Positions 10,301-63,000 of a DNA stretch of 64,000 bases are shown in pieces; position 1 is the stretch's first letter, and each line of letters opens with the position of its first letter. The stretch comes from Octopus sinensis. Taxonomy: Eukaryota. The stretch covers positions 167,834,001 to 167,898,000 of the forward strand of contig NC_042997.1 in the NCBI RefSeq assembly GCF_006345805.1. Reading direction: 5' to 3'. A program made the translations under genes and the position numbers. The notes beneath the pieces were generated by a model. It had not been told where the DNA came from. It ran no database searches and saw only the letters and a program-made list of their open reading frames with translations.

Positions 10301-13300
10301 TTCTCTTTTTCATACAATACCACTACAACAGTCTATGGGTCAGGACATTATTTCTGTTTTCAGGGGATATCATCAAGGAAACTAATGATAAAGATTTATG
10401 GAAAAATTGTTATGCAAACAATAAAACGTATTAAAGATGCACTGGGAAGAGTTAAGCATACTTATTTCATTAGAGTTTGAGAAAAAAATTATGTCTAAGT
10501 GTGTTTAAGGAAAGCTGTTGGATAGAAGATGAAACAGTATCAATCTATGATAGCCTTCTACAAATGAGACAGTAAGAGGAATATGAATAAGTTGGTGCAG
10601 GTGATATTCAAGATTTATTGCATGCTGATAAGACCTTTATCTACAATGATCTTAAGGGGTTGACAGAACTGCAAATGTCCCCTTCAGATAGGAAGAGGAT
10701 GCTCCTTTACATTAGTTTTAATAGCAGAATTCTTAAAGCCCTGCTTTAAGCCTTTTGATTAGACCACTATATTTTTAAAGAAAGCATGATCATCATACAT
10801 TCTCTTTCCATGACTACACCTGGGTAAAAAATTAACATATTTCTACAATACAAAATGTATAGAATCTAAAGCATCTTGATTTGTTTCAGAATCGTATGAA
10901 AGATATCCTGGAATCTTGGCTGAAGGTTCAGTCTGCCTGGTTGTACTTGGAACCAATATTTGGATCGGCAGATATCAGAGAGCAAATTCCTGTACAGGGT
11001 AAAATGTTTGAAGAAGTTGACCAAAACTGGTAAATTATTTAGATATGTCTACTTCAAATTATGTTTCTTTTTTTATTTTGTTACATTTTTATTTATTTGA
11101 ATATTTATAAAAGAAGTAACAAAGAGAATTGGAGACCCCTTAGCAATTATAAACAAGCAGTTCATGAAATAAAGATAGATTTAAAGATTTCAATAAACCT
11201 CATGTATAGAAGGATATAAGCATATATATATTCTTATTTAATTGAGGTCTGATGATTGAGATGATATTAATAACTTGATTTTGCATGAGCAGAGGGAAAA
11301 CTCCTCTCTTTTATTCCTTTATTATGCTGCTATGTTCTTGAGAAAGGCATGAATATCACACAGTCCTATCCTGTTCAGTTATATATGCATGTAGCCTTAT
11401 GCTTGTGTTAAGAGATTGACAACTTGTATTCTGTCTATGACACTGTTGTCTGTAGGACATAACTCTTAAAATGGTCAAATATACCAAGCTATAAACAAGC
11501 ACCAAATTGAAAGAAAAGCTTCCTTCCTTAAGCAGCAGAAGCAACCATTCAAGAATTTGGACCTGGAGATCTCCATTTCCAGCAACTTTGAGGTCCACCT
11601 CCCAGTGGTGTCAGGCGTCAACGAAGAGCCCTCGACTACAACAAGACGACCAAAGTTTTTTTGTTTTTTTTCCAATGTCTGGGGTCTCCCACCCCTAAGC
11701 CCTAGATCATCACCTAATCACCCTTACCCGTCTTGTTGCTTAACAACAACAACAACAGCAGTAGCAGAAATATTGTTGATTTGGCAGACCTAAGTTCAAT
11801 TTTATGTTGGTATCCCATCCAGCAGAGAAATCATTGTAGAAGAGAATGGAACTTAGAAAAATTTATCTAATTATTCCTTAAAGATAGAATAGAAGCAGGA
11901 GAATTAATTGCTACTGAATGTAAAGTTAAACACCCTGCTTCATAGATTGTTTAGGCTTTCATCTTAAATCAGAATAGTCTAATTTGTAGATTTGACATAG
12001 CTATTAAGAAAGATTTTGATTTGTTTTCCTTTTATTCTTACATTGTCTTCTTATGTTGATCATTTTCATGATGATATTGCATTTTAGCTTATGCCTGATT
12101 ATCTAAAATAATATTTTTACGGAGATGTACTTGCATAGCAAGTGACCTGATCTGAGATCATGTGCAGGAACGAAAACAATTGCAGCATGGCAGGTGTTTA
12201 TAAGCCATTTAAGAAACACACAAAAACTGTTAGATTCATTTCAACATTTAAATTTAATTTGCCAAACTATATTTTTGTCACTTTGAGACCGCAACCTGTT
12301 CACTGACAAAATATTTTTGCTGTAGCCATATTACGTAAAGAATATTCATGGAAGTTATCAATATATAGTATCTGATCTATCTACAATCCACCAACACAGT
12401 ATTCTGATTTTTCATTTATCTATGCTTTGACACATGTCAATTAAAGGTAAATAAGTCACTTGAGATAGTAACCCTGATTTGAATACTAGCTGAAACTGTT
12501 TCAACTCACAAGGTTTATTGCTCTTGGAAAATTCATTAAAACTGCAACTCTTTATTTCTTATCTCACATGAAAATATGAAGCCTTAAAAGCCAATGAGTG
12601 AACCTTTACAAAGCCATCGGACCTGCTACAAATACTGCCAAATCCCCTTTGAATAACCCCTACCATCTTTTTAAAAAAAGTGACACATTGAACAATGTAG
12701 TCCTACATACACTATGTATGAAATATAAGAAACAGTCACACCATTGTGTATGGGTTTACTTGATCAAGACTGACAGGAGTTAAGCAATGATACTTTCATC
12801 CACTGCTTCATACTTATAAATAACAATAATGAGCTTATTATAATAACGATGAAATTCTAAAGAAGTTAATGAGGCAACATCTCCAGCGAATTCCTTTTAA
12901 CCCTTTCATTACCACATTTCTGTTGAAATGTACTACCTTTGCCACAATTAATTTTGAAAATATCAAAGAATTCAGTAAGATCACTTTGCCAATATTAAGC
13001 TGGTGGGTAGAGCATACATAAACATAACATTTTGATGGAATGTTTTAATTTAAATCACTTCAAAACAAGAAGTTTGTATCACAGAGCTACAGGTAGTCTT
13101 AGGCAGGTTGGTATCAAGAGTTAATACACTGTGACAAAGTCATTTAAGACTAGTTTTGAAAATAAGTCCTTTTAAATGTTTTATCTATTCATTGAATATT
13201 ATTCTTCTTAAAACTCAATTTTTGTTTTAAATAATTGATTGTCTGTGTTCCATCTAGACATAATTAACATTTTTTTCTTTAGGAAACAGATCATGTCAAC

Positions 13301-46300: not shown

Positions 46301-49096
46301 TTACCATTGTCAAAGACACAGCAGCTGTTTGAGTCTAACACACGACTGACTTGTTATGTTAACAGTTAGAGTTCAAGCATTACTGCAAAAATCTAAAGTT
46401 ATTTTTGATGTCGTTACGATTCTTTTACCACAAGTCAGCTCAAATTGAGCAGATCTGTGATCAAGCATACAACTCCAAATCATTGGATTTTTGTTTAAAC
46501 TGTAATGTATCCAGGACTACATTATATTAGATATACAATTCTCCTCTTTTAACATCTTAGGGTATGAGCTGGCTGGATTTGAAGTGGGTGGCTAGCTATT
46601 GTTTATAGCCAATCAAGTAACCACCTTTCTTGAACCAGTTGTTTTGCATCTGGTGAAGTCACATAACACTTCCTGTTATGATTACTGATTCCATTTACTA
46701 TCTGAGTAGTTATTAGCAAGAAAGGTACTCAACAGTAAAAAAAACAGTTGCTCAAACAACCAAATATTTTTTCAAAACATTCTCTCACCTTATTGGATAG
46801 GGAATGTCAACAAAACTAATAATGCATGAAGAAAAGACATCATACATGAGTTGGGAGGATTTGCTGTAGAAGACTATGGTTAATGTAGAACTTATGACTA
46901 TATTTATGTGAAGAAGTGTTTGCAGTTTAATATATTACAAGAACACAAGAGGTGGAAGAAGATGCAGTTCAATTTATGGGATAAAAACGAAATAGATAAT
47001 TACAAGCAAAGTGAGTGTTGTCATAATTGTATTGTTGTTGTTACAGTTATAGATTTTTGTTGTTACTGTAATAGCTTTTGTTGTATACCTTGTTCTTATC
47101 CTTGTTGATAGATACAATCAGGCAGGCTTATTGATACATTAGGTTTATGGGTCTTGGAGGAGATGGGAATGTTGCTGTCAGCTGACAATAGATGTTTTTC
47201 AGATAGAGGTGAGATGTAGACTGCAAATTCTTAAAAGTATGTTGGCAGCATTGCTTTTGACCTGGCTGTAATATTACAATATTGTTATTAGTCGTGAAGA
47301 TGTTATAGAAATGAGAAAAGTGTTACAGTAAGGCTACAAGTATTATAATAGTAGTGGTGTTTAGTAAGCAAGTTATAGTAGCACTTGTAGCAATGCATGA
47401 TATAAACACCAATCCCACCTTCAAAAAATGCCCTTCAAAACCTGTTTTTAAAAAATCAAGCTGGACAATCTTCTGAAACATATTCATTGATATAGATGTT
47501 CCTACAGTGTCATAAAGCATATTAAATTGTGAAGTGTTAGGTATTTAAATATTAAAGAAGATATGGCTTTTTATATTTATCTCTAAATCTATAGAGAAGC
47601 TAATGCATGCTTTACTTTGGATAATAGTGTGCTTTCAAAACTCTATCCACCAGATTTTATCATACATGTATAACTCATATCTCAGTTGGATTCAAACATT
47701 TTAGAATTTATTCTCTTATGTATTAATGAATGGGAAAAGCAAAGCACTTTACAAATGCTTTGCAGAAGAAAATAGATTGCCATTGAATCTCCATACCATA
47801 ATAACAAGAGATAGCATTGGATGCAATCAAGGCTTCTAAAAATGTATTATAAGATGTTGTCAGTAAAATTCGTTTTTTCCCATTTATATTAATGCATTTC
47901 ACAGAAAATTCAAATGAGTAAACTGGCTCTGTGATATAGCAATAATGAAAACTTCAGATCAAAGATGTGTTATTTGTCTGCATACATTTTGGCAATGCAA
48001 GACTGAAATACAGTTAATGATCATGAAAATCAGCTAGCTTTTATAGACTAATGCTATGCAATTGCTCATAATCTATCTTTATAATACAAGTTCATTTTTG
48101 GTTTTTATGCAAACATGTTTTAATGTTTCTCAAACACATCTTTTAAAACTATACTTAGATGTCATTTAACCCTTTAGCATTTAAACCAGTCATGTCTGGT
48201 CCAAATTTTCTACCTGTTTTATGTTCAAACCAGTCATATCCAGCCTCTCACACTTCATCTACAATGTCATTCTAAAACTGAACAATCACATCATTGAAAT
48301 CTTGAAGCCTTGAAGTAATAAATGATTAATTCAAAACAATGTGAATAAATAAGGCAATCTGTATGTTAAATGGTTAAGAACTATTATTATTCTATGTTTG
48401 ACTTTTGCTTTATGTCTGTACAAGTTGGCTCCAAGTCTCACCCAGAGACCTCAAGAGACAACAGGTTGGAAGTTCTGTGCCATATATTTGGGTTTTTTTT
48501 TTTTTTTTGGTGTTGTACTAGTGAATGTCTAATACATAAAAATAAAATAAAAAAAATAAAATAAAATAAATAAATAAATAAATAAATAAATAAAGTTTGT
48601 TTTAAACCTTGGGATTACATAGAGAGTATTTTGCGTAGGATATGAGCAGTTCCCATGAGCACTATCTTTTGAATTTCTGCCATTTTGGGGTTTCCTGGTA
48701 TCTGAGTTAGGTAGCAATTAGTCCCTTTCGCTATCATTCCCAGGGCACCTATGACAACAGGTATTGTTTTAGTCTTCAGCTTCCACATTTTGCTGATTTC
48801 TATTTCAAGATCTTTATATTTGCTCAGTTTTTGGTAGGTCTTGACAGATACGTTTATATCGATTGGGACAGTCATATCAATGAGGAGGCATGTTCTTTGT
48901 CTGAAGTCTTTCAATATGATGTCTGGCCTATTTGCATCTATCTTCCTGTCAGTTTGAATGGTGAAGTTCCAGAGGAGTGAGATGTGGTCATTTTCAAGCA
49001 CTGGAAGTGGATTATGTTCCCACCAGTTTTTTTCATGGGGCAAATCCAGGTTTTTGCAAATTACCCAGTGAATATATGAATTATTATTATTATTAT

Positions 49097-49129
<33 letters not shown>

Positions 49130-52100: not shown

Positions 52101-54678
52101 CAACGAGACCTGGGATGAAGTGGTGAAGCACAACCTTCGAACATTAGGCCTCACCAAGAAAATGACTAGCAGCCAAGACCTTTGGAAATATGCTGTGCTT
52201 GAGAAGACTCAGCAAGCCAGATGTGGCCTATGCCAGGAGCATAACCAGCCCACTTATGCGTAGCTTTTCCTTCTTTGGTCACTAAACTTTGCTTGTGAAG
52301 ACCTGTTGAGGCAAGTGAAATCAAATCAAAATCATTTTGATGACTAGCATCCGTGCTAGTGGGGTGCAAAGAGCACCATACGAGTGTGATTGCTGACAGA
52401 GCGGCTATTCAAGTATGATTGTTACCAGCGTCGCCTTACTGGCACTTATGCCTGTGCTAGCAGGGTGCCAAGAACACCACCCGAGCATGATCGTTGTGAT
52501 CGTTGCCAGAGCAGCCAACTGGCTTCCGTAACCATGGCACGTAAAAGGGCACCATTCGAGCGTGATCGTTACCAACGTCGCTTCACTGGCACCTGTGTTG
52601 GTGGCACGTGTAAAAAGATTCAAGCGAGGTCATTGCCAGTACCGCCTGACTGGGCCCCGTGCAAGTGGCACATAAAAAGCACCCACTACACTCTCGGAGT
52701 GGTTGGCATTAGGAAGGGCATCCAGCTGTAGAAACTCTGCCAGATCAAGACTGGAGCCTGGTGCAGCCATCTGGTTGCCAGCCCTCAGTCAAAACCGTCC
52801 AACCCATACTAGCATGGAAAACGGATGTTAAATGATGATGATGATGATGATGATATATATACATATATGAAATGTGTGTGTTCATTTATTGAATTCAGGA
52901 AAGACACTACTATGTTTGAGTTAATTAATGTAAAAATATTGTCAGCGATGGCACCAACGAGTGGAGGCCGCAATCCAATAACCACACGTTTCCTGCGTCA
53001 CTTCAACATCATCCATATTGATGCATTCTCAGAAGATATTCTAAAGGAAATTTTTTCACCAATGACCGAATGGCATTTCAGACAATTCCCTGTATCTTTG
53101 CGCCGATTCTCACGGGTGAGTGACACTTTACATATTTTTCCCCTCCATTGCTGATTAGCTAATCAATGATTTTGATAGTGGTAGTGTAGGTGGTGATGTT
53201 AGTAGAGAATATAATTGTTCCTTCTCGAGCCATGCCTGGATCGTAAGGGCTGGTTTCCCGGTTTCCTTGGCGTATGGGTTCCCCACCTGGATGGGACGCC
53301 GGTCCATCACAAGTGAGCTGCAAGATGCAGGAGAAAAGAGTGAGAGAAAGTTGTGGTGAAAGAGTCAGCAGAAGTTTGCCATTACCTTCTGCTGGAGCCG
53401 CATGGAGCTTTGGTGTTTCGCTCATAAACACACACATCGCCTGGTCTGAGATTTCAACCCGCGATCTCTCGACCACGAGTTCGCTGCTCTAACCACTAGG
53501 CCATGTGCCTCCACAGAGAATATAATTGTCATGATGACAGTTTTTATTGCTGTTGTTTAGCTCCAGCTCAATCCTGTTTGGATATTCCTTTGATCTAAAC
53601 CATCCCAACTTTGCAGAAGCCCATCATGTGTATGTGTATGCATGTACTTTCATGCATGTCTATGTTTGTCTACCACCATTTAACAGCTAGTGTAGTTTTA
53701 AGTCCCTATAACTTAGTGGTTCAGCAAAAAAAAAAAACAAAAGGAAACAGACAGATTTAGAACCAGATTAAAACAGGTACTGGGGTCAATTTGATTGACT
53801 TAAAAATACTTTCAGCATGACATGCTGACATAACCACAGTCTAATAACTGAGACAAATAAATGAAAAGAAAATATATGTTTATATTTTGTGTGAGTGGTA
53901 ATTAATTGCAATGCTGGTATGTAATGTGTGTGGGGGGGGGTGCACATATATACACATACTCTACATGTGCCCTTGTGCAAAAATCTCTTTTAGTGTTGCT
54001 ATAATATTGGGATAGCCACACTAATTATATTCTGTGTCAATGCCAATACCATAATTATACCATGTTCTACCTTGTCCAATGTCTCCAATTTTACATTAGA
54101 AAATATTCTGTCATCTGCTTCATATTTATACATTATACTAAATTATTCTGTTGTGTCTGGGGAGAGTCATTTTCTTTTTGTGCCTTAAAATTTAACATAC
54201 TCACCGGCAAAATTTCCACTTATTTTTTATTTTCCTAAAAGTTTCATTGCGTCTTGCAACCTTTTCAATAGTCTTGACTCTGTCCGTTATTTACACTGTG
54301 TTCCTTTTTGATTGTTTGTGCGCATGTGTGTGGGTCAGTGTTTGTGTGTGTGTGTGTACCTATGCATGCATGTACGTATGTATATGTGTATGTATGTATG
54401 CATGTGTATGTATGTATGTATGTGTGTGCATCTGTATGTATGTATCCTGTATATTCATGTGTTTGCATGTCTGTGTTTGTGTATTTTCTATGTATGTGTG
54501 TTTGTATATGTATGCACCGCTGTCTCCACTAAATTATACTCTTTGGAAAGTCCTTTTATATGCACCCAAAATACTTTTGCTGATCCTTATCTTTTCTAGC
54601 ACATTAACTCGTGGAGAGAACACAACAGAACATTTAAAGCCCCATGCTTTCTTTTCCTTCTTCTTTCTCTCTCTCCTG

Positions 54679-54709
<31 letters not shown>

Positions 54710-55682
54710 CTACTCTCTCTCTCTTTCTTTCTCTCTCTCTTCCCCCTCTCTGTGTCTCTCTCATTCTGTTTCTCCTCTCTCTCATTCTGTCTTTCCCTTT
54801 CTCTCGCTTGTCCTGTCTCTCCTCCTCTCTTGCTCTTCCTTCTCTCCCCTCTCTCTCATCCTCTCTCTCCCCTTCTCTCTCTCATCCTGTCTCTACCCCT
54901 CTCTCTCTGGTTCTGTCTCTCACTCACTCTCATCCTCTCTCTCCCCACTCTCTCATCCCATCTGTCTCTCCTCTCCTGTCCTGTCTCTCCCCTCTCTCGT
55001 CCTGTCTCTCCCCTCTCTCTCATCCTGTCTCTCCCCCTCTTTTGTCCTGTCTTTCTCCTCACTCATTTTACCTTCCTCCTTCTCTCTCTTTTTCCCCACT
55101 TTGCATAATCATTTCCAGTTAGTCTTTTTTTTATATGTTCTTTGAATTAAACCTGTTAGCACTAACTTTGTTTCATGAATTAGCCATTTTAGCACAACTT
55201 AATTTTACTCTATTGTGATTACAGATCATTATTCATGCCACACTGGACATCTACAAGAAAGTTGTTACCAAGTTTTTACCTACTCCTTCAAAATCTCATT
55301 ATGTCTTCAACCTTCGAGATTTTGCACGTGTCATACAGGTGAGAAGTGAAACAGATATGTTATATGTTATATCAATGAGAGACATGGTGTCAGCTTCATA
55401 GGTCATACACGTGAAAGGTCATTCAAATATTATTAAATGGCATACAGTAGATGACAGTAGATTAGCAAACGTATTGGGCAACATTTCTCAACCGGGGTTC
55501 CCTGGAATCCTAGGGTTCTGCAAATGGTTCCTTAGGGTTCCATAAGAAAGAGTGAGATAAGCTAATGCTAATTTCATGATTGTAATATCACTATACATGC
55601 ACAACATATTACTGGTTATTGTAACATTGTAATATAGGTATCATCCTATCTAACTTATTATGTTATCAAAAAAATATAACAA

Positions 55683-58709: not shown

Positions 58710-59993
58710 TATTATTATTATTATCATCATTATTATTATTGAGTGAGAGAGCAGTACATGCCATCAAAATGACATTGGGGTAAAATATACAAAGCCCAGT
58801 ATACTCATCATGACTACCCGTCTGATAAGGGTACACTAGGCACATGCGTCACAACCATATGTGCACGACAAGGTGATCTCATATCAAGATAAACAGCACA
58901 TGACCTTGCAGGTGGGGCCCAGTTAGAATTTTATTCTGGTCGAGTAACCAATACCACTCAAAAGGTCCCTGAATAAGGGTTGTTTAAGGATGTTGAACAA
59001 AACACCCATGTTTCCAGAGGTGAATTATTCAAACCCCAAAGAATCCCTCTCAACACATGGCTATGATGCTCCCCCACTACTTCTGCTCATGATCAGAGAT
59101 GCACATATCATCAGCCACTAAGGGAAATGGTCAACTGGTTACGGTCAAGCAACTGACAAGCAAATCTGTGGTATTGAGCAGAATATTTGCTGTAGCCCAT
59201 CATTTATACCAAGACAAAACAATGTACATGAAAACACTTTCAATCAGTTAAGATCAGAAGCCACGAAAGCCACTGCCTGGTACTGCATCAGGGCATTTAT
59301 TATTATTATTATTATTACTTTTTTTTTTTCTTCTTTCAAATTTGCTTCCATTTCTTGCCGAGTGTCTTCCCGACTCCTAGGGCAAAGAAACTCATAGTAT
59401 ACATTGGTAGGCCATTAAACCAAACTCAATAGTTCGTTCATTTAAAAAAAAATTTTTTTTTAAGTTAAATTAAAATACATGAGCAGCAACAGTTCTCACA
59501 TCGACAATGCTCTTCTCAATACGTGTGATGTACCAGTTAAGACAATCTTTTGCACTTCTTGCAGGGATGGTAAGCCAGGGATCATTCTCATATAATTTTC
59601 GGTTCCCTTCTTGATCATTCCTAGTGCTCCTACGATCACTGGTATTGTAACCGCCTTGAGATGCCACATTTTCTCAATTTCAATGAGTAAGTCTTTATAT
59701 TTTCTGAGCTTGTCAAACTCTTTCGCTGAGATATTATGATCACAGGGGATGCTCATGTCGATCAATAAACAAACTTTATTGTTTTGGTCTTTCACAACAA
59801 TATCAGGTTTATTGGCCTTGATGGTTCGGTCTGTATGTACTGGAAAGTCCCACAGAATGGTTACATTTTCTCCTTCAGTTACAGCCTCAGGGTGGTGATT
59901 ATACCACTTGTCAGCAGTTTTGATATTGTAATGCCAACTTATTAGGCAGTGTAGATATTGGCCAACTCTGTCATGTCTTAATTTATACTCCAC

Positions 59994-60052
<59 letters not shown>

Positions 60053-63000
60053 TCCTCCTTCTCCTTCTCCTTCTTCTTGTGAGCTGGTAGAATCATTAGC
60101 ACACCAGACAAAATGCATAGCAACATTTCATATGTCCTTACATTCCAAGTTCAAATTCCACCAAGGTCACCTTTGCTTTTCATCCTTAAAATAAAATAAG
60201 CACCAGTTGAACACTGGAGTCAATGTAATTGATTTACAACGCAAGCCTGAAATTGCTGGCCTTGTGCCAAAATTTGAAACCATTATTATAATTACTATTA
60301 AGGCAGCAAGCTGGCAGAATTGTTAGCATACTGGACTAAGTGCTTTGTGACATTTCTTCCAGCTTTACATTCGGAGTTGAAATTCTGCTGACGTTGACTT
60401 TGCCTTTCATCCTACTGGGGTACTGGTTGAGCACTGGGTCAATATAATTCTTAAAGACAGGTTCTTAGTGTGGGATTCATTATTGCAAACAAACCTAATA
60501 TTCCAACAGTGTTAATACTTTTACCATTCTAAACATTCTCTATATATTTCAATATTCTGACCAGTCTAAGTACTCCAACATTGCTAACATTTTTAACATT
60601 CTAAACACTCAATCATTTTTAACTTTCTAGACATTCTAACATTCTAAACTGTTTAAGCATTCCTAACATTGTAAGCATTACCAAAATTCTACACATTCCT
60701 AAATGTTTCTAAGCATTCCCTAGACGTTTCTAAGCATCCCTTATATGTTTCTATCACCCAAACATTTCTAGGAATTCTCTAGACGTTTCTAAGCATCCTA
60801 CAAACATTTCTAACCATCTCCTAAACATTTCTAAGCATTTCCCAAACGTTTCTAAGTATCTCCTAAACGTTTATAAGTCTTCCTGAAACATTTATAATCA
60901 TTCCTTTAATGTTTTTAACCCTTTCGTTACTGTATTTATTTTGAAATGCTCTGTGTTTCTTTTAATTACTTTAAATATTACAAAGAATTTAGTAAAATAA
61001 CTTGGCTATCATTAAGCTAGTGTTAGGAACATAAATTGTGGCTAAGGTTTGGTGGAAGATTTTAATTCAAAACTTATGGAAACAAGACATTTGTACTCAG
61101 AGCCAGTTCTGGTTTCAGCCGGGTTGGTAATGAAAGGGTAAGCATTTCCTAAATGTTTTTGAATATTCTAAGCACTCCTCACACTTTAAACACTCCATCA
61201 TTTTTAACTTTCTAAACCTTTTAAACATTCCTAGCATACATACCACCATACCTAACTCCCTACATAATGTCATACTTATCTTTATGTTATGCTCTGTTCA
61301 TACTTCTATGCTTACTTTCATATCTCCCCCATTTTTACTTCTGTTCTTACAACCTCCATTCTTACCTCCAGACTTGTCTCTAGTCTTACCTTCAGACTTA
61401 ACTCCATTCTTACATCTACACTACCTGTTTTTCTAACTGCCAAACCTCCATATTCTATATTCCAGTTATCTATTGAAGCCCAATTCAAAGAAAAGTTCAA
61501 CTCTGTGTTTGGACATTTGGCCCCTAAAGGGAAACAAGTCACCCCAAAAGACATGAGGTGTTTAATATTTGGAGATTTCATGGAGCCTAAAGAAGGTAGT
61601 GTCAGGTTGTATGATGAGATTAGTGACCAGGATGAGTTGAGGCAGGTAAGTGTCTTGACTATAGATTATTCCCATCATCCTCATTGCCACCATCATCATC
61701 GCCACCATCATCATCGCCACCATCATCATCGCCACCATCCTCATTGCCACCATTATCATTGCCACCATCATCATCGCCACCATCATCATCGCCACCATCC
61801 TCATTGCCACCATCATCATTGCCACCATCATCATCACCACCATCATCATCGCCACCATCATCATCGCCACCATCATCATCGCCACCATCATCATCACCAC
61901 CATTATTATTGCTACCATCATCATCGCCATCATCATCATCATCATTGCCACCACCACCACCATCATTGTCACCACCACCATCATCATCACCACCACCATC
62001 ACCATCATCTCTAAAATAACTGAATGTGAGATGTGAATGGAATATTGTTTATAAGTAAAGCTTTATCATGTGATATGTTTCTGTGAAGGTAATTGAGAAA
62101 TACCTGGCTGATTACAATTTGATGAGTAAAACTCCAATGGATCTGGTCATGTTTCATTTGGCTGTTGAGCACATTACAAGGATCAACAGAGTTTTGAAGC
62201 AACCCAACGGTCACTGTTTACTCATTGGTGAGTATATAGTTTATGGTTCACTCAATAATTTTAATCATAACAACAAGAGCATGACAGACATGTGGCTCAT
62301 TAATGACACAGGTGTAATTCATTGAAAGCAGATTTAAAGAAGCAAATCTCATATCTAATGGGAAATTGTTGGGAGTAAGTGCTGGGGAACAACTGCCCAA
62401 TAACAGTTGAGACAAATGAAAATATATCACTTAAAGATCAAACTTTTGAATGACTATCAGATGTGATTCAATATCACCTGTTTATGGCAAACATTTGTAA
62501 CTAATTAATGGCAAAGTAATAACTCATCAATTATCAAAATAAAAGTAAGCAGATTCAGAAACTTTATTCCACAATGTAGATATAAAGTTTACAGCTTTCT
62601 TTTAAAAATCTGTTATATAGATTAGAAGTAGTATATTAATTTAAAATAGCCATCTATGCATCATACTCAATCTAGATACATAATTGAAAGGTAAGTTGCT
62701 GTTGTATTGATCCAGATATGACATCTTTGTTTAAAAACACCATGTATATCAGAAGGAGACAAATATTGTACCGGCTGTGGCTAACAAGAACACATAATGC
62801 ATTTTTCCCAAGTTAGGCCTTATCAGTGATATGTACTCATAGCCAGCCTCATGCCTAAATGAGAAGGCCCAACTAGGTTGAAATACATCTGGCATTCTTG
62901 TTAGCCACTGCTGGAACAATTTTCATCTCTTTTCAATATTTTTGTGCTTTCACACATAGCATGTTCATTAGTGATTTTTTTTCTGGATGAATATACAGTA

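What the first reader, a model, noticed from the sequence alone, without database searches (positions are those of the whole stretch)
54233..54272. Candidate minimal hammerhead ribozyme with a U3-A8 core, antisense in a dynein intron
Seen: minus strand reads CTA / TTGAAAA / G / GTTGC-aagac-GCAAT / GAAA / ct / TT / TAG, i.e. stem I, 7-nt core, one extra base, 5-bp stem II, GAAA, vestigial stem III, UH site. Known: the canonical core CUGANGA has a C3-G8 tertiary pair that tolerates compensatory swaps, and Penelope-like elements carry minimal type I hammerheads with an extra base after A9 and a very short stem III that cleave as dimers. Inference: this is the ribozyme of a non-autonomous Penelope/retrozyme-like repeat (about 54150-54275). 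G5, A6, A9, G12, A13 and A14 are all present. A search for CUGANGA would miss it. Stem I is only 3 bp, so this copy may be weak.
Basis: partly seen in the sequence, partly recalled or inferred. Interest (0 to 1): 0.72.

Follow-up and report, generated by a model that had tools for sequence, protein, structure and literature searches.

The report
Decayed Penelope hammerhead in dynein intron
This is the cut-down end of a Penelope-type jumping gene, one of thousands of copies, carrying a small hammerhead-shaped RNA motif of an already published kind; the family motif likely cuts RNA slowly and in pairs (untested), but this copy has two damaging changes, faces against the host gene and likely does nothing.

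Summary
The motif is there as described (minus strand, 54271-54235) and is very likely a real minimal type I hammerhead. It is not a retrozyme. It lies in a 381-bp, 5'-truncated copy (54147-54527, 10-bp target duplication) of a Penelope-like retrotransposon family that encodes reverse transcriptase and GIY-YIG nuclease; 2,852 places in the genome match the motif pattern exactly. Across 11 lineages the motif sits after the ORF and keeps its stems and the 3-8 pair by compensatory change (C-G 7, U-A 2, G-C 1, A-U 1). U3-A8 in Penelope hammerheads is published (PMC4209133). This copy is probably crippled: the stem III palindrome is broken (ACUU for AAUU), G10.1-C11.1 has become G-U, no partner lies near, and the dynein pre-mRNA carries the opposite strand. 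Cleavage is untested, and copies do not begin or end at the cut site. The more unusual states (G3-C8 in a sister family, A3-U8 in one metagenome contig) lie outside this locus; I did not find them described as natural, but could not read the main survey. This scan has already reported the same set of cores on other windows of this and other genomes.

The parts
54235..54271 (-). Minimal type I hammerhead motif (stem I 3 bp, U3-A8 core, extra G, stem II 5 bp, GAA, 4-nt stem III, U17); predicted cut between 54238 and 54237
54147..54527 (-). 5'-truncated Penelope-like retrocopy, family A (3' part of the 3' UTR, hammerhead, ORF start); 83-88% identical to three longer copies and 76-81% to two more
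54137..54146 (+). Target-site duplication, left copy (10 bp)
   Evidence: same 10-mer on both sides, only these 2 occurrences in the window
54528..54537 (+). Target-site duplication, right copy (10 bp)
54147..54170 (-). First codons of the element's ORF (ATG at 54170, MTLPRHNR); the copy ends at the shorter of the family's two 3'-end clusters
54241..54241 (-). C at position 15.2 where the family has A (90 of 98 copies A, 2 of 98 C); breaks the AAUU palindrome predicted to form stem III in a dimer
54246..54246 (-). U at position 11.1 where the family has C (69 of 98 C, 26 of 98 T; a CpG site)
53116..55224 (+). Host intron of a dynein heavy chain gene, between the exon ending the AAA_7 match and the exon starting AAA_lid_1
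12114..12310 (-). Decayed end of sister family C (G3-C8 core at about 12303-12297, but A at position 12 and broken stem II/III)

Best explanation
The motif is the hammerhead-shaped end of a Penelope-like retrotransposon, copied into this dynein intron as a 381-bp truncated insertion; in the parent element it likely works as a slow self-cutting RNA that needs a second copy and perhaps the element's protein, while this copy is likely inert. Shown: the element's anatomy (ORF, 3' UTR, motif, next ORF start about 70 nt after the predicted cut), the target duplication, the copy number, and paired changes in stems I, II, III and at 3-8 between related families. Inferred from published Penelope hammerheads: two motifs in a tandem transcript pair their palindromic stem III (AAUU with AAUU) and cut after U17, trimming or circularising element RNA. 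Inferred from copy ends: reverse transcription starts inside the next ORF on RNA that is uncut (or re-joined) at the motif, which is why every copy carries the whole motif as a passenger. This copy has lost the palindrome and the G10.1-C11.1 pair, has no partner nearby and is read backwards by the host gene.
For: RT + GIY-YIG ORF ends 430-740 nt upstream of the motif in most longer copies; 2,852 exact pattern matches, reversed control 0; 10-bp target duplication. Same place in 11 lineages holds a motif with Watson-Crick pairs at 3-8 in 11 of 11 (four pair types), 2.1-1.1 11 of 11, 10.2-11.2 11 of 11, 15.2-16.2 11 of 11; on a plain MAFFT alignment of 13 rows 96.7% of cells pair, 18 cells change on both sides, 0 of 500 shuffles reach this and slid partners give 10-62%; RNAalifold finds stem II unaided. 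The motif finder did not ask for a 3-8 pair. All four hallmarks listed by Cervera and de la Pena (families with covariation, extra base before 10.1, G10.1-C11.1, palindromic 15.2-16.2) are met, and U3-A8 is described there. 87 of 97 copy ends fall in two clusters about 88-108 and 150-165 nt past the cut, like the two internal start sites and 'tail' of the anole element. Stem III duplex is about 5 kcal/mol worse for this copy than for the family form; stem II 1.3 worse.
Against: No cleavage data. No Rfam hammerhead match, though Rfam also missed canonical-core relatives in all 8 loci given. Fold energy of this copy is not above shuffles. None of 30 ORF-bearing copies begins at the cut (nearest main starts -6, -21, +36; four secondary pieces start at +4, +9, +12, +21) and 96 of 97 copies read past it. 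The clade tolerates odd core letters: C at 9 in two lineages, U17 in 9 of 11, a U3-G8 subfamily (48 exact matches; 10 of 98 copies), one lineage with A at 12 and one with G at 4. Family A has the weakest stems of the three families in this genome. Lineages are related and registers were set by hand, so permutation values are not true probabilities.
Confidence: 0.8

Rival explanations
1. The motif keeps a hammerhead fold but family A no longer uses it for cutting; it serves as a structural signal (protein binding, start of reverse transcription, promoter part) or is decaying.
For: Copies neither start nor end at the cut; in the anole element cutting was not needed for insertion in vitro and no RNA-seq ends were found at the cut; U3-G8 subfamily amplified; C9 in young family B; short stems in family A.
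Against: The 3-8 pair is a tertiary contact of the active fold and was re-paired in four lineage changes; G5, A6, A13 invariant and G12 kept in 10 of 11 lineages; tested Penelope hammerheads do cut slowly as dimers or with protein.
Confidence: 0.17
2. A short non-autonomous retrozyme that spreads as tandem units or RNA circles.
For: Most copies are short and lack the ORF; animal retrozymes are reported to derive from Penelope ends (part 1).
Against: Copies share 3' ends but have variable 5' ends reaching into an RT + GIY-YIG ORF; this copy is single, with a target duplication; no head-to-tail array of a short unit in the first 30 loci; retrozymes were defined there as tandem units each with a motif.
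Confidence: 0.03
3. The copy was kept because it regulates the dynein gene (co-opted intronic ribozyme).
For: It lies in a dynein intron; one contig of another organism's run carries the same flank and 23 nt of the element (under the tool's 31-nt bar for bridging).
Against: Opposite strand to the pre-mRNA; 8 of 165 positions differ from the subfamily majority, near the median of 5.5%, and two of these hit the motif; about one such motif per megabase genome-wide.
Confidence: 0.02
4. Chance likeness to a hammerhead in an AT-rich repeat.
For: Unremarkable fold energy, 3-bp stem I, non-canonical core, no Rfam hit.
Against: 0.005-0.025 expected per window; homologous position in related families holds motifs with different letters and the same pairs, several with the canonical core.
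Confidence: 0.02

Closest known systems
Minimal hammerheads (min-HHR) of metazoan Penelope-like elements, including the U3-A8 variant of Schistosoma mansoni Cercyon elements (Cervera and de la Pena 2014, PMC4209133)
   Same: Type I, in the pseudo-LTR, extra base before stem II, G10.1-C11.1, palindromic 15.2-16.2, mostly single truncated copies, U3-A8 core.
   Different: Host is likely an octopus (closest named protein Octopus vulgaris, 95% to family B); stem I only 3 bp; U17; sister families with G3-C8, with C9, and a U3-G8 subfamily, none of which is in the text I read (figures not held).
PAc (Poseidon of Anolis carolinensis) hammerhead and 'tail' (Frangieh et al. 2024, PMC11167929)
   Same: Motif close to the ORF start; two clusters of 3' ends inside the next ORF; copies made from uncut RNA.
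   Different: There the ORF starts within the ribozyme, here about 70 nt after the cut; canonical C3-G8 core there; this family has the Cys linker of Neptune/Nematis type.
Canonical C-terminal-endonuclease PLEs, Neptune/Nematis type (Craig et al. 2021, PMC8557442)
   Same: Single ORF, RT then CX2-5CxxC linker then GIY-YIG; inverted 5' pieces; optional tail; hammerhead near the 3' end.
   Different: Clade not resolved between Neptune and Nematis here; DKS in place of DKG in families B and C.
Animal non-LTR retrozymes (bioRxiv 10.64898/2026.07.22.740005)
   Same: Type I hammerhead, Penelope origin.
   Different: Not tandem, not fixed length, parent is autonomous.
Natural U3-A8 hammerheads of Perreault et al. 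2011 (PMC3088659)
   Same: Same compensatory core pair, stated there to be active in vitro.
   Different: That passage does not concern Penelope elements.

Membership tests
Minimal type I hammerhead of PLEs | Core U4 G5 A6 A9, G12 A13 A14, A15.1-U16.1, H17 | tested here: met
   All present in the window copy and together in 70 of 98 family copies
Minimal type I hammerhead of PLEs | Watson-Crick pair at 3-8 | tested here: met
   U3-A8; 11 of 11 lineages paired, four pair types
Minimal type I hammerhead of PLEs | Extra base before stem II and G10.1-C11.1 | tested here: met
   Family: extra G 93 of 98, C11.1 69 of 98; the window copy has G-U
Minimal type I hammerhead of PLEs | Palindromic stem III for dimer formation | tested here: met
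   Family AAUU in 83 of 98 copies; NOT met in the window copy (ACUU)
Minimal type I hammerhead of PLEs | Compensatory changes in stems across families | tested here: met
Minimal type I hammerhead of PLEs | Location in the pseudo-LTR between ORF end and next ORF start | tested here: met
Minimal type I hammerhead of PLEs | Site-specific self-cleavage after position 17 | not testable with these tools
   Only assembled contigs were available
Rfam hammerhead families | Score above gathering threshold | tested here: not met
   No hit; canonical-core relatives are missed too, so the test has little power
Penelope-like element, C-terminal endonuclease | One ORF with RT followed by GIY-YIG | tested here: met
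   YVDD RT motif and GIY-YIG-type end; Pfam RVT_1 E 0.0022 (family B) and GIY_YIG_2 E 0.0016 (family A), both below curated cut-offs
Penelope-like element, C-terminal endonuclease | Partial tandem pseudo-LTRs, inverted 5' pieces, optional tail | tested here: met
Neptune or Nematis clade | CX2-5CxxC linker between RT and nuclease | tested here: met
   C-x4-C-x2-C in families A and B; definition
Neptune or Nematis clade | Placement in an RT tree with named reference elements | not tested
   No named references were in hand
Non-LTR retrozyme | Non-coding tandem units, each with a hammerhead | tested here: not met
   Single copy with target duplication; family has an ORF

The most novel reading that the evidence does not exclude
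One clade of Penelope-like elements has run a natural scan of the hammerhead active site: all four Watson-Crick pairs at 3-8 (three in sister families of one genome), an amplified U3-G8 intermediate, C at 9 twice, a U15.1-A16.1 flip and U17 as the rule. If these cut, natural G3-C8 and A3-U8 ribozymes exist, thousands of them in one animal genome, unseen by CUGANGA searches, and the tolerance would point to help from the element's protein.
Probability: 0.35. Interest if true: 0.5.

Novelty: new member of a known kind. Interest (0 to 1): 0.28.

Why it matters
For this locus, little: it is one worn copy among thousands. For the family, it adds a likely cephalopod example of a published core variant and shows that searches for CUGANGA and Rfam both miss these motifs. 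The side result, four different 3-8 pairs in one clade with young, intact ORFs in families B and C, offers matched RNA and protein pairs with which to test the open question of whether and when Penelope hammerheads cut.

Tried and rejected
Rfam: no hammerhead hit on the window, the 701-nt region or 8 related loci. Fold energy: not above shuffles for five stretches. A long-range helix pairing the bases before stem I with the start codon appears in the predicted folds of families A and C, but was no better than shuffles in any of 15 motifs (p 0.07-0.89): dropped. Mutation density inside the motif among 61 subfamily copies (2.1% against 2.8-3.7% in flanks) was not used, because many copies were picked by likeness to the motif. 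5' ends at the cut: none of 30. Sequencing runs: no RNA holder listed, only contigs; laying 8 of the 20 runs showed no place where many molecules begin or end, which contigs cannot show. A search with a more distant protein piece brought no fourth family among the 30 loci and 6 stretches looked at. Two labels in the tree (L050, L089) are wrong picks of the motif finder and were ignored. Lunse et al. 2017, Przybilski and Hammann 2007 and Nelson and Uhlenbeck 2008 were not held.

Full report
Observation. The 40-nt piece folds into stems I and II, but no better than shuffles (z -1.15). A descriptor written after seeing the motif finds this one site in the window, against 0.025 per shuffled window (200 shuffles; 0.005 for stem II of 5 bp or more). 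Rfam gives nothing, but it also missed canonical-core relatives in 8 loci. Exons of a dynein heavy chain lie on the + strand (6 of 6 pieces given hit dynein motor families); the motif is antisense in intron 53116-55224.

What carries it. A 91-nt query found 1,959 candidates in the genome, 40 scored, 43 matches. A 30-letter pattern of the motif matches 2,852 places exactly, its reversed control none. Copies share their 3' part and differ in 5' extent; longer ones run into an ORF with an RT motif (YVDD), a C-x4-C-x2-C linker and a GIY-YIG-type end. Pfam support is below cut-off (RVT_1 E 0.0022 for family B, GIY_YIG_2 E 0.0016 for family A). The linker marks the Neptune/Nematis type according to Craig et al. 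(passages). The closest named protein, 95% identical to family B, is from Octopus vulgaris, so the host is likely an octopus. The window copy spans 54147-54527 and is flanked by a 10-bp direct repeat found only there in the window: an ordinary 5'-truncated retrocopy. It differs from the majority of its subfamily at 8 of 165 positions, near the median of 5.5% for 61 copies. The next ORF starts at 54170, 67 nt after the predicted cut. Of 97 copy ends, 29 fall 88-108 nt and 58 fall 150-165 nt after the cut, 1 at the cut and 9 elsewhere, matching the two internal start sites and tail described for the anole element (PMC11167929, parts 1-2 of 4 read).

Is the motif real? Copies of one family mostly repeat one master, so the test is between families. 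Protein searches found two more families in this genome, B (about 57% identity to A) and C (about 50%), and 40 metagenome loci. Of the metagenome loci of this clade, motifs after the ORF were seen in L121, L122, L125, L126, L127, L128, L131 and, with A at 12, in L133 and L135 (same flank, counted once; L134 and L136 are near-identical proteins whose 3' part I did not print); none was seen in L123 and L129 (51 and 153 nt left), L124 or L132; L130 and L137-L143 do not reach the ORF end. In the 11 lineages, with registers set by hand, position 3-8 is a Watson-Crick pair in 11 of 11 (C-G 7, U-A 2, G-C 1, A-U 1); 2.1-1.1, 2.2-1.2, 10.2-11.2, 10.3-11.3 and 15.2-16.2 also 11 of 11, 2.3-1.3 and 10.1-11.1 10 of 11. 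The finder did not ask for a 3-8 pair. On an unedited MAFFT alignment of 13 rows, 96.7% of 60 cells pair, 18 change on both sides, no shuffle of 500 reaches this and slid partners give 10-62%; RNAalifold predicts stem II by itself. Relatedness inflates these controls, but the pattern is that of a conserved hammerhead fold. A tree of 48 of 95 ORF pieces (rows without a motif from this genome and surplus copies left out; bootstrap not settled; midpoint root) groups A with B (100/99) and both with C (97/93), and puts the other U3-A8 lineage, L126, with a C3-G8 lineage (99/97), so U3-A8 likely arose twice.

This copy. Among 98 distinct copies, U3 is in 96, A8 in 87 (G in 10), C11.1 in 69 (T in 26, a CpG site), A15.2 in 90 (C in 2), U17 in 95; 38 keep core, stems and palindrome together. 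The window copy has U11.1 and C15.2; contigs of four runs show the same majority letters. The stem III duplex is about 5 kcal/mol worse and stem II 1.3 worse than in the family form. No second family-A end lies in the window, and the dynein pre-mRNA holds the reverse complement. It is likely inert.

How it likely works. By Cervera and de la Pena (PMC4209133, parts 1-2 of 4 read, 2 of 3 supplements searched), such motifs do not cut as monomers and cut slowly as dimers; the anole motif cut only with the element's protein and was not needed for insertion in vitro. I infer the same here: in a tandem transcript two motifs pair their AAUU palindromes and cut after U17 at a low rate, while most insertions are copied from uncut or re-joined RNA. 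Against a constant role in making the template: none of 30 ORF-bearing copies starts at the cut, 15 reach upstream of it (the query's own locus included, two of them starting inside the motif), four secondary pieces start at +4 to +21, and 96 of 97 copies run past it. Odd core letters (C9 in family B and L126, U17 in 9 of 11, a U3-G8 subfamily with 48 exact matches) fit a slow or helped ribozyme, and also the rival that the fold is kept for something other than cutting. That U17 is a poorer site than C17 is recalled, not from a call.

Comparison and novelty. U3-A8 is in print for Schistosoma Penelope elements (about 1,300 hits) and for other natural hammerheads (PMC3088659, passages). The finding is therefore a new member of a known kind. 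Retrozyme is not the right label (bioRxiv 10.64898/2026.07.22.740005, part 1 of 5). Family C (G3-C8; 1,335 exact matches) and L131 (A3-U8, one contig) are less usual: searches found G3-C8 only as a made variant (PMC3884650, one passage; PMC8495972, passages; PMC11167929) and A3-U8 not at all; a search for octopus with hammerhead ribozyme listed four papers, none of which by title, abstract start or (for PMC8557442) passages treats this motif. Lunse et al. 2017, the largest survey of these motifs, was seen only as a citation and in review passages (PMC6765202), and figures and one supplement of PMC4209133 were not visible, so the claim is open. This scan's index lists eight earlier unreviewed reports of the same set of cores, three from this genome, none near this place; I consulted it after my own tests.

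Verdict. Real motif, known kind, likely dead copy. Interest 0.28.

Noticed in passing
window 12114-12310 (-): Decayed end of family C with a G3-C8 core, A at position 12 and broken stems.
   Followed up: partly
L161-L186 (family C), G000: Young sister family with a G3-C8 core, 7-bp stem I and AAUAUU palindrome; 1,335 exact matches of a 35-letter pattern; open frames up to 1,042 aa.
   Followed up: yes
L071-L080 (family B), G000: Young family with canonical C3-G8 but C at position 9 in every motif the finder picked, an imperfect stem III palindrome and both U17 and C17 copies.
   Followed up: partly
L257-L276, L059, L093, L098, L099, L112, L113, L115, L117, L118: Subfamily of A with U3-G8, a possible step between C3-G8 and U3-A8; direction not determined.
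   Followed up: partly
L131:1703-1746; L125:4966-5016; L126:2490-2537: Metagenome relatives with A3-U8; with U15.1-A16.1; and with U3-A8 plus C9.
   Followed up: partly
G000, listings: Many motif matches come as head-to-head pairs 6-80 nt apart: short fold-back insertions whose inversion point lies just upstream of the hammerhead.
   Followed up: no
families A, B, C (L017, L074, L162): The shorter 3' end falls at about the same codon of the ORF start in all three families (after P-x-x-N), which suggests a conserved start signal for reverse transcription (read by eye).
   Followed up: partly
L203, L209: Two ORF-bearing copies begin at +93 and +97, the same place where many copies end; may be unit-length copies or insertions into a pre-existing end.
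   Followed up: no
window 54204-54199 (-): A consensus-like splice donor (GTGAGT) lies between the motif and the ORF start in family A; Penelope elements can hold introns; not tested.
   Followed up: no
L032, L040, L070, L086: Canonical CUGANGA hammerheads of another repeat; three lie within about 1.3 kb in L070, as a retrozyme-like array might.
   Followed up: no
window 48615-49127 (-) and 59496-60092 (-): Two open frames that look like C-terminal parts of non-LTR retrotransposon proteins (recalled likeness).
   Followed up: no
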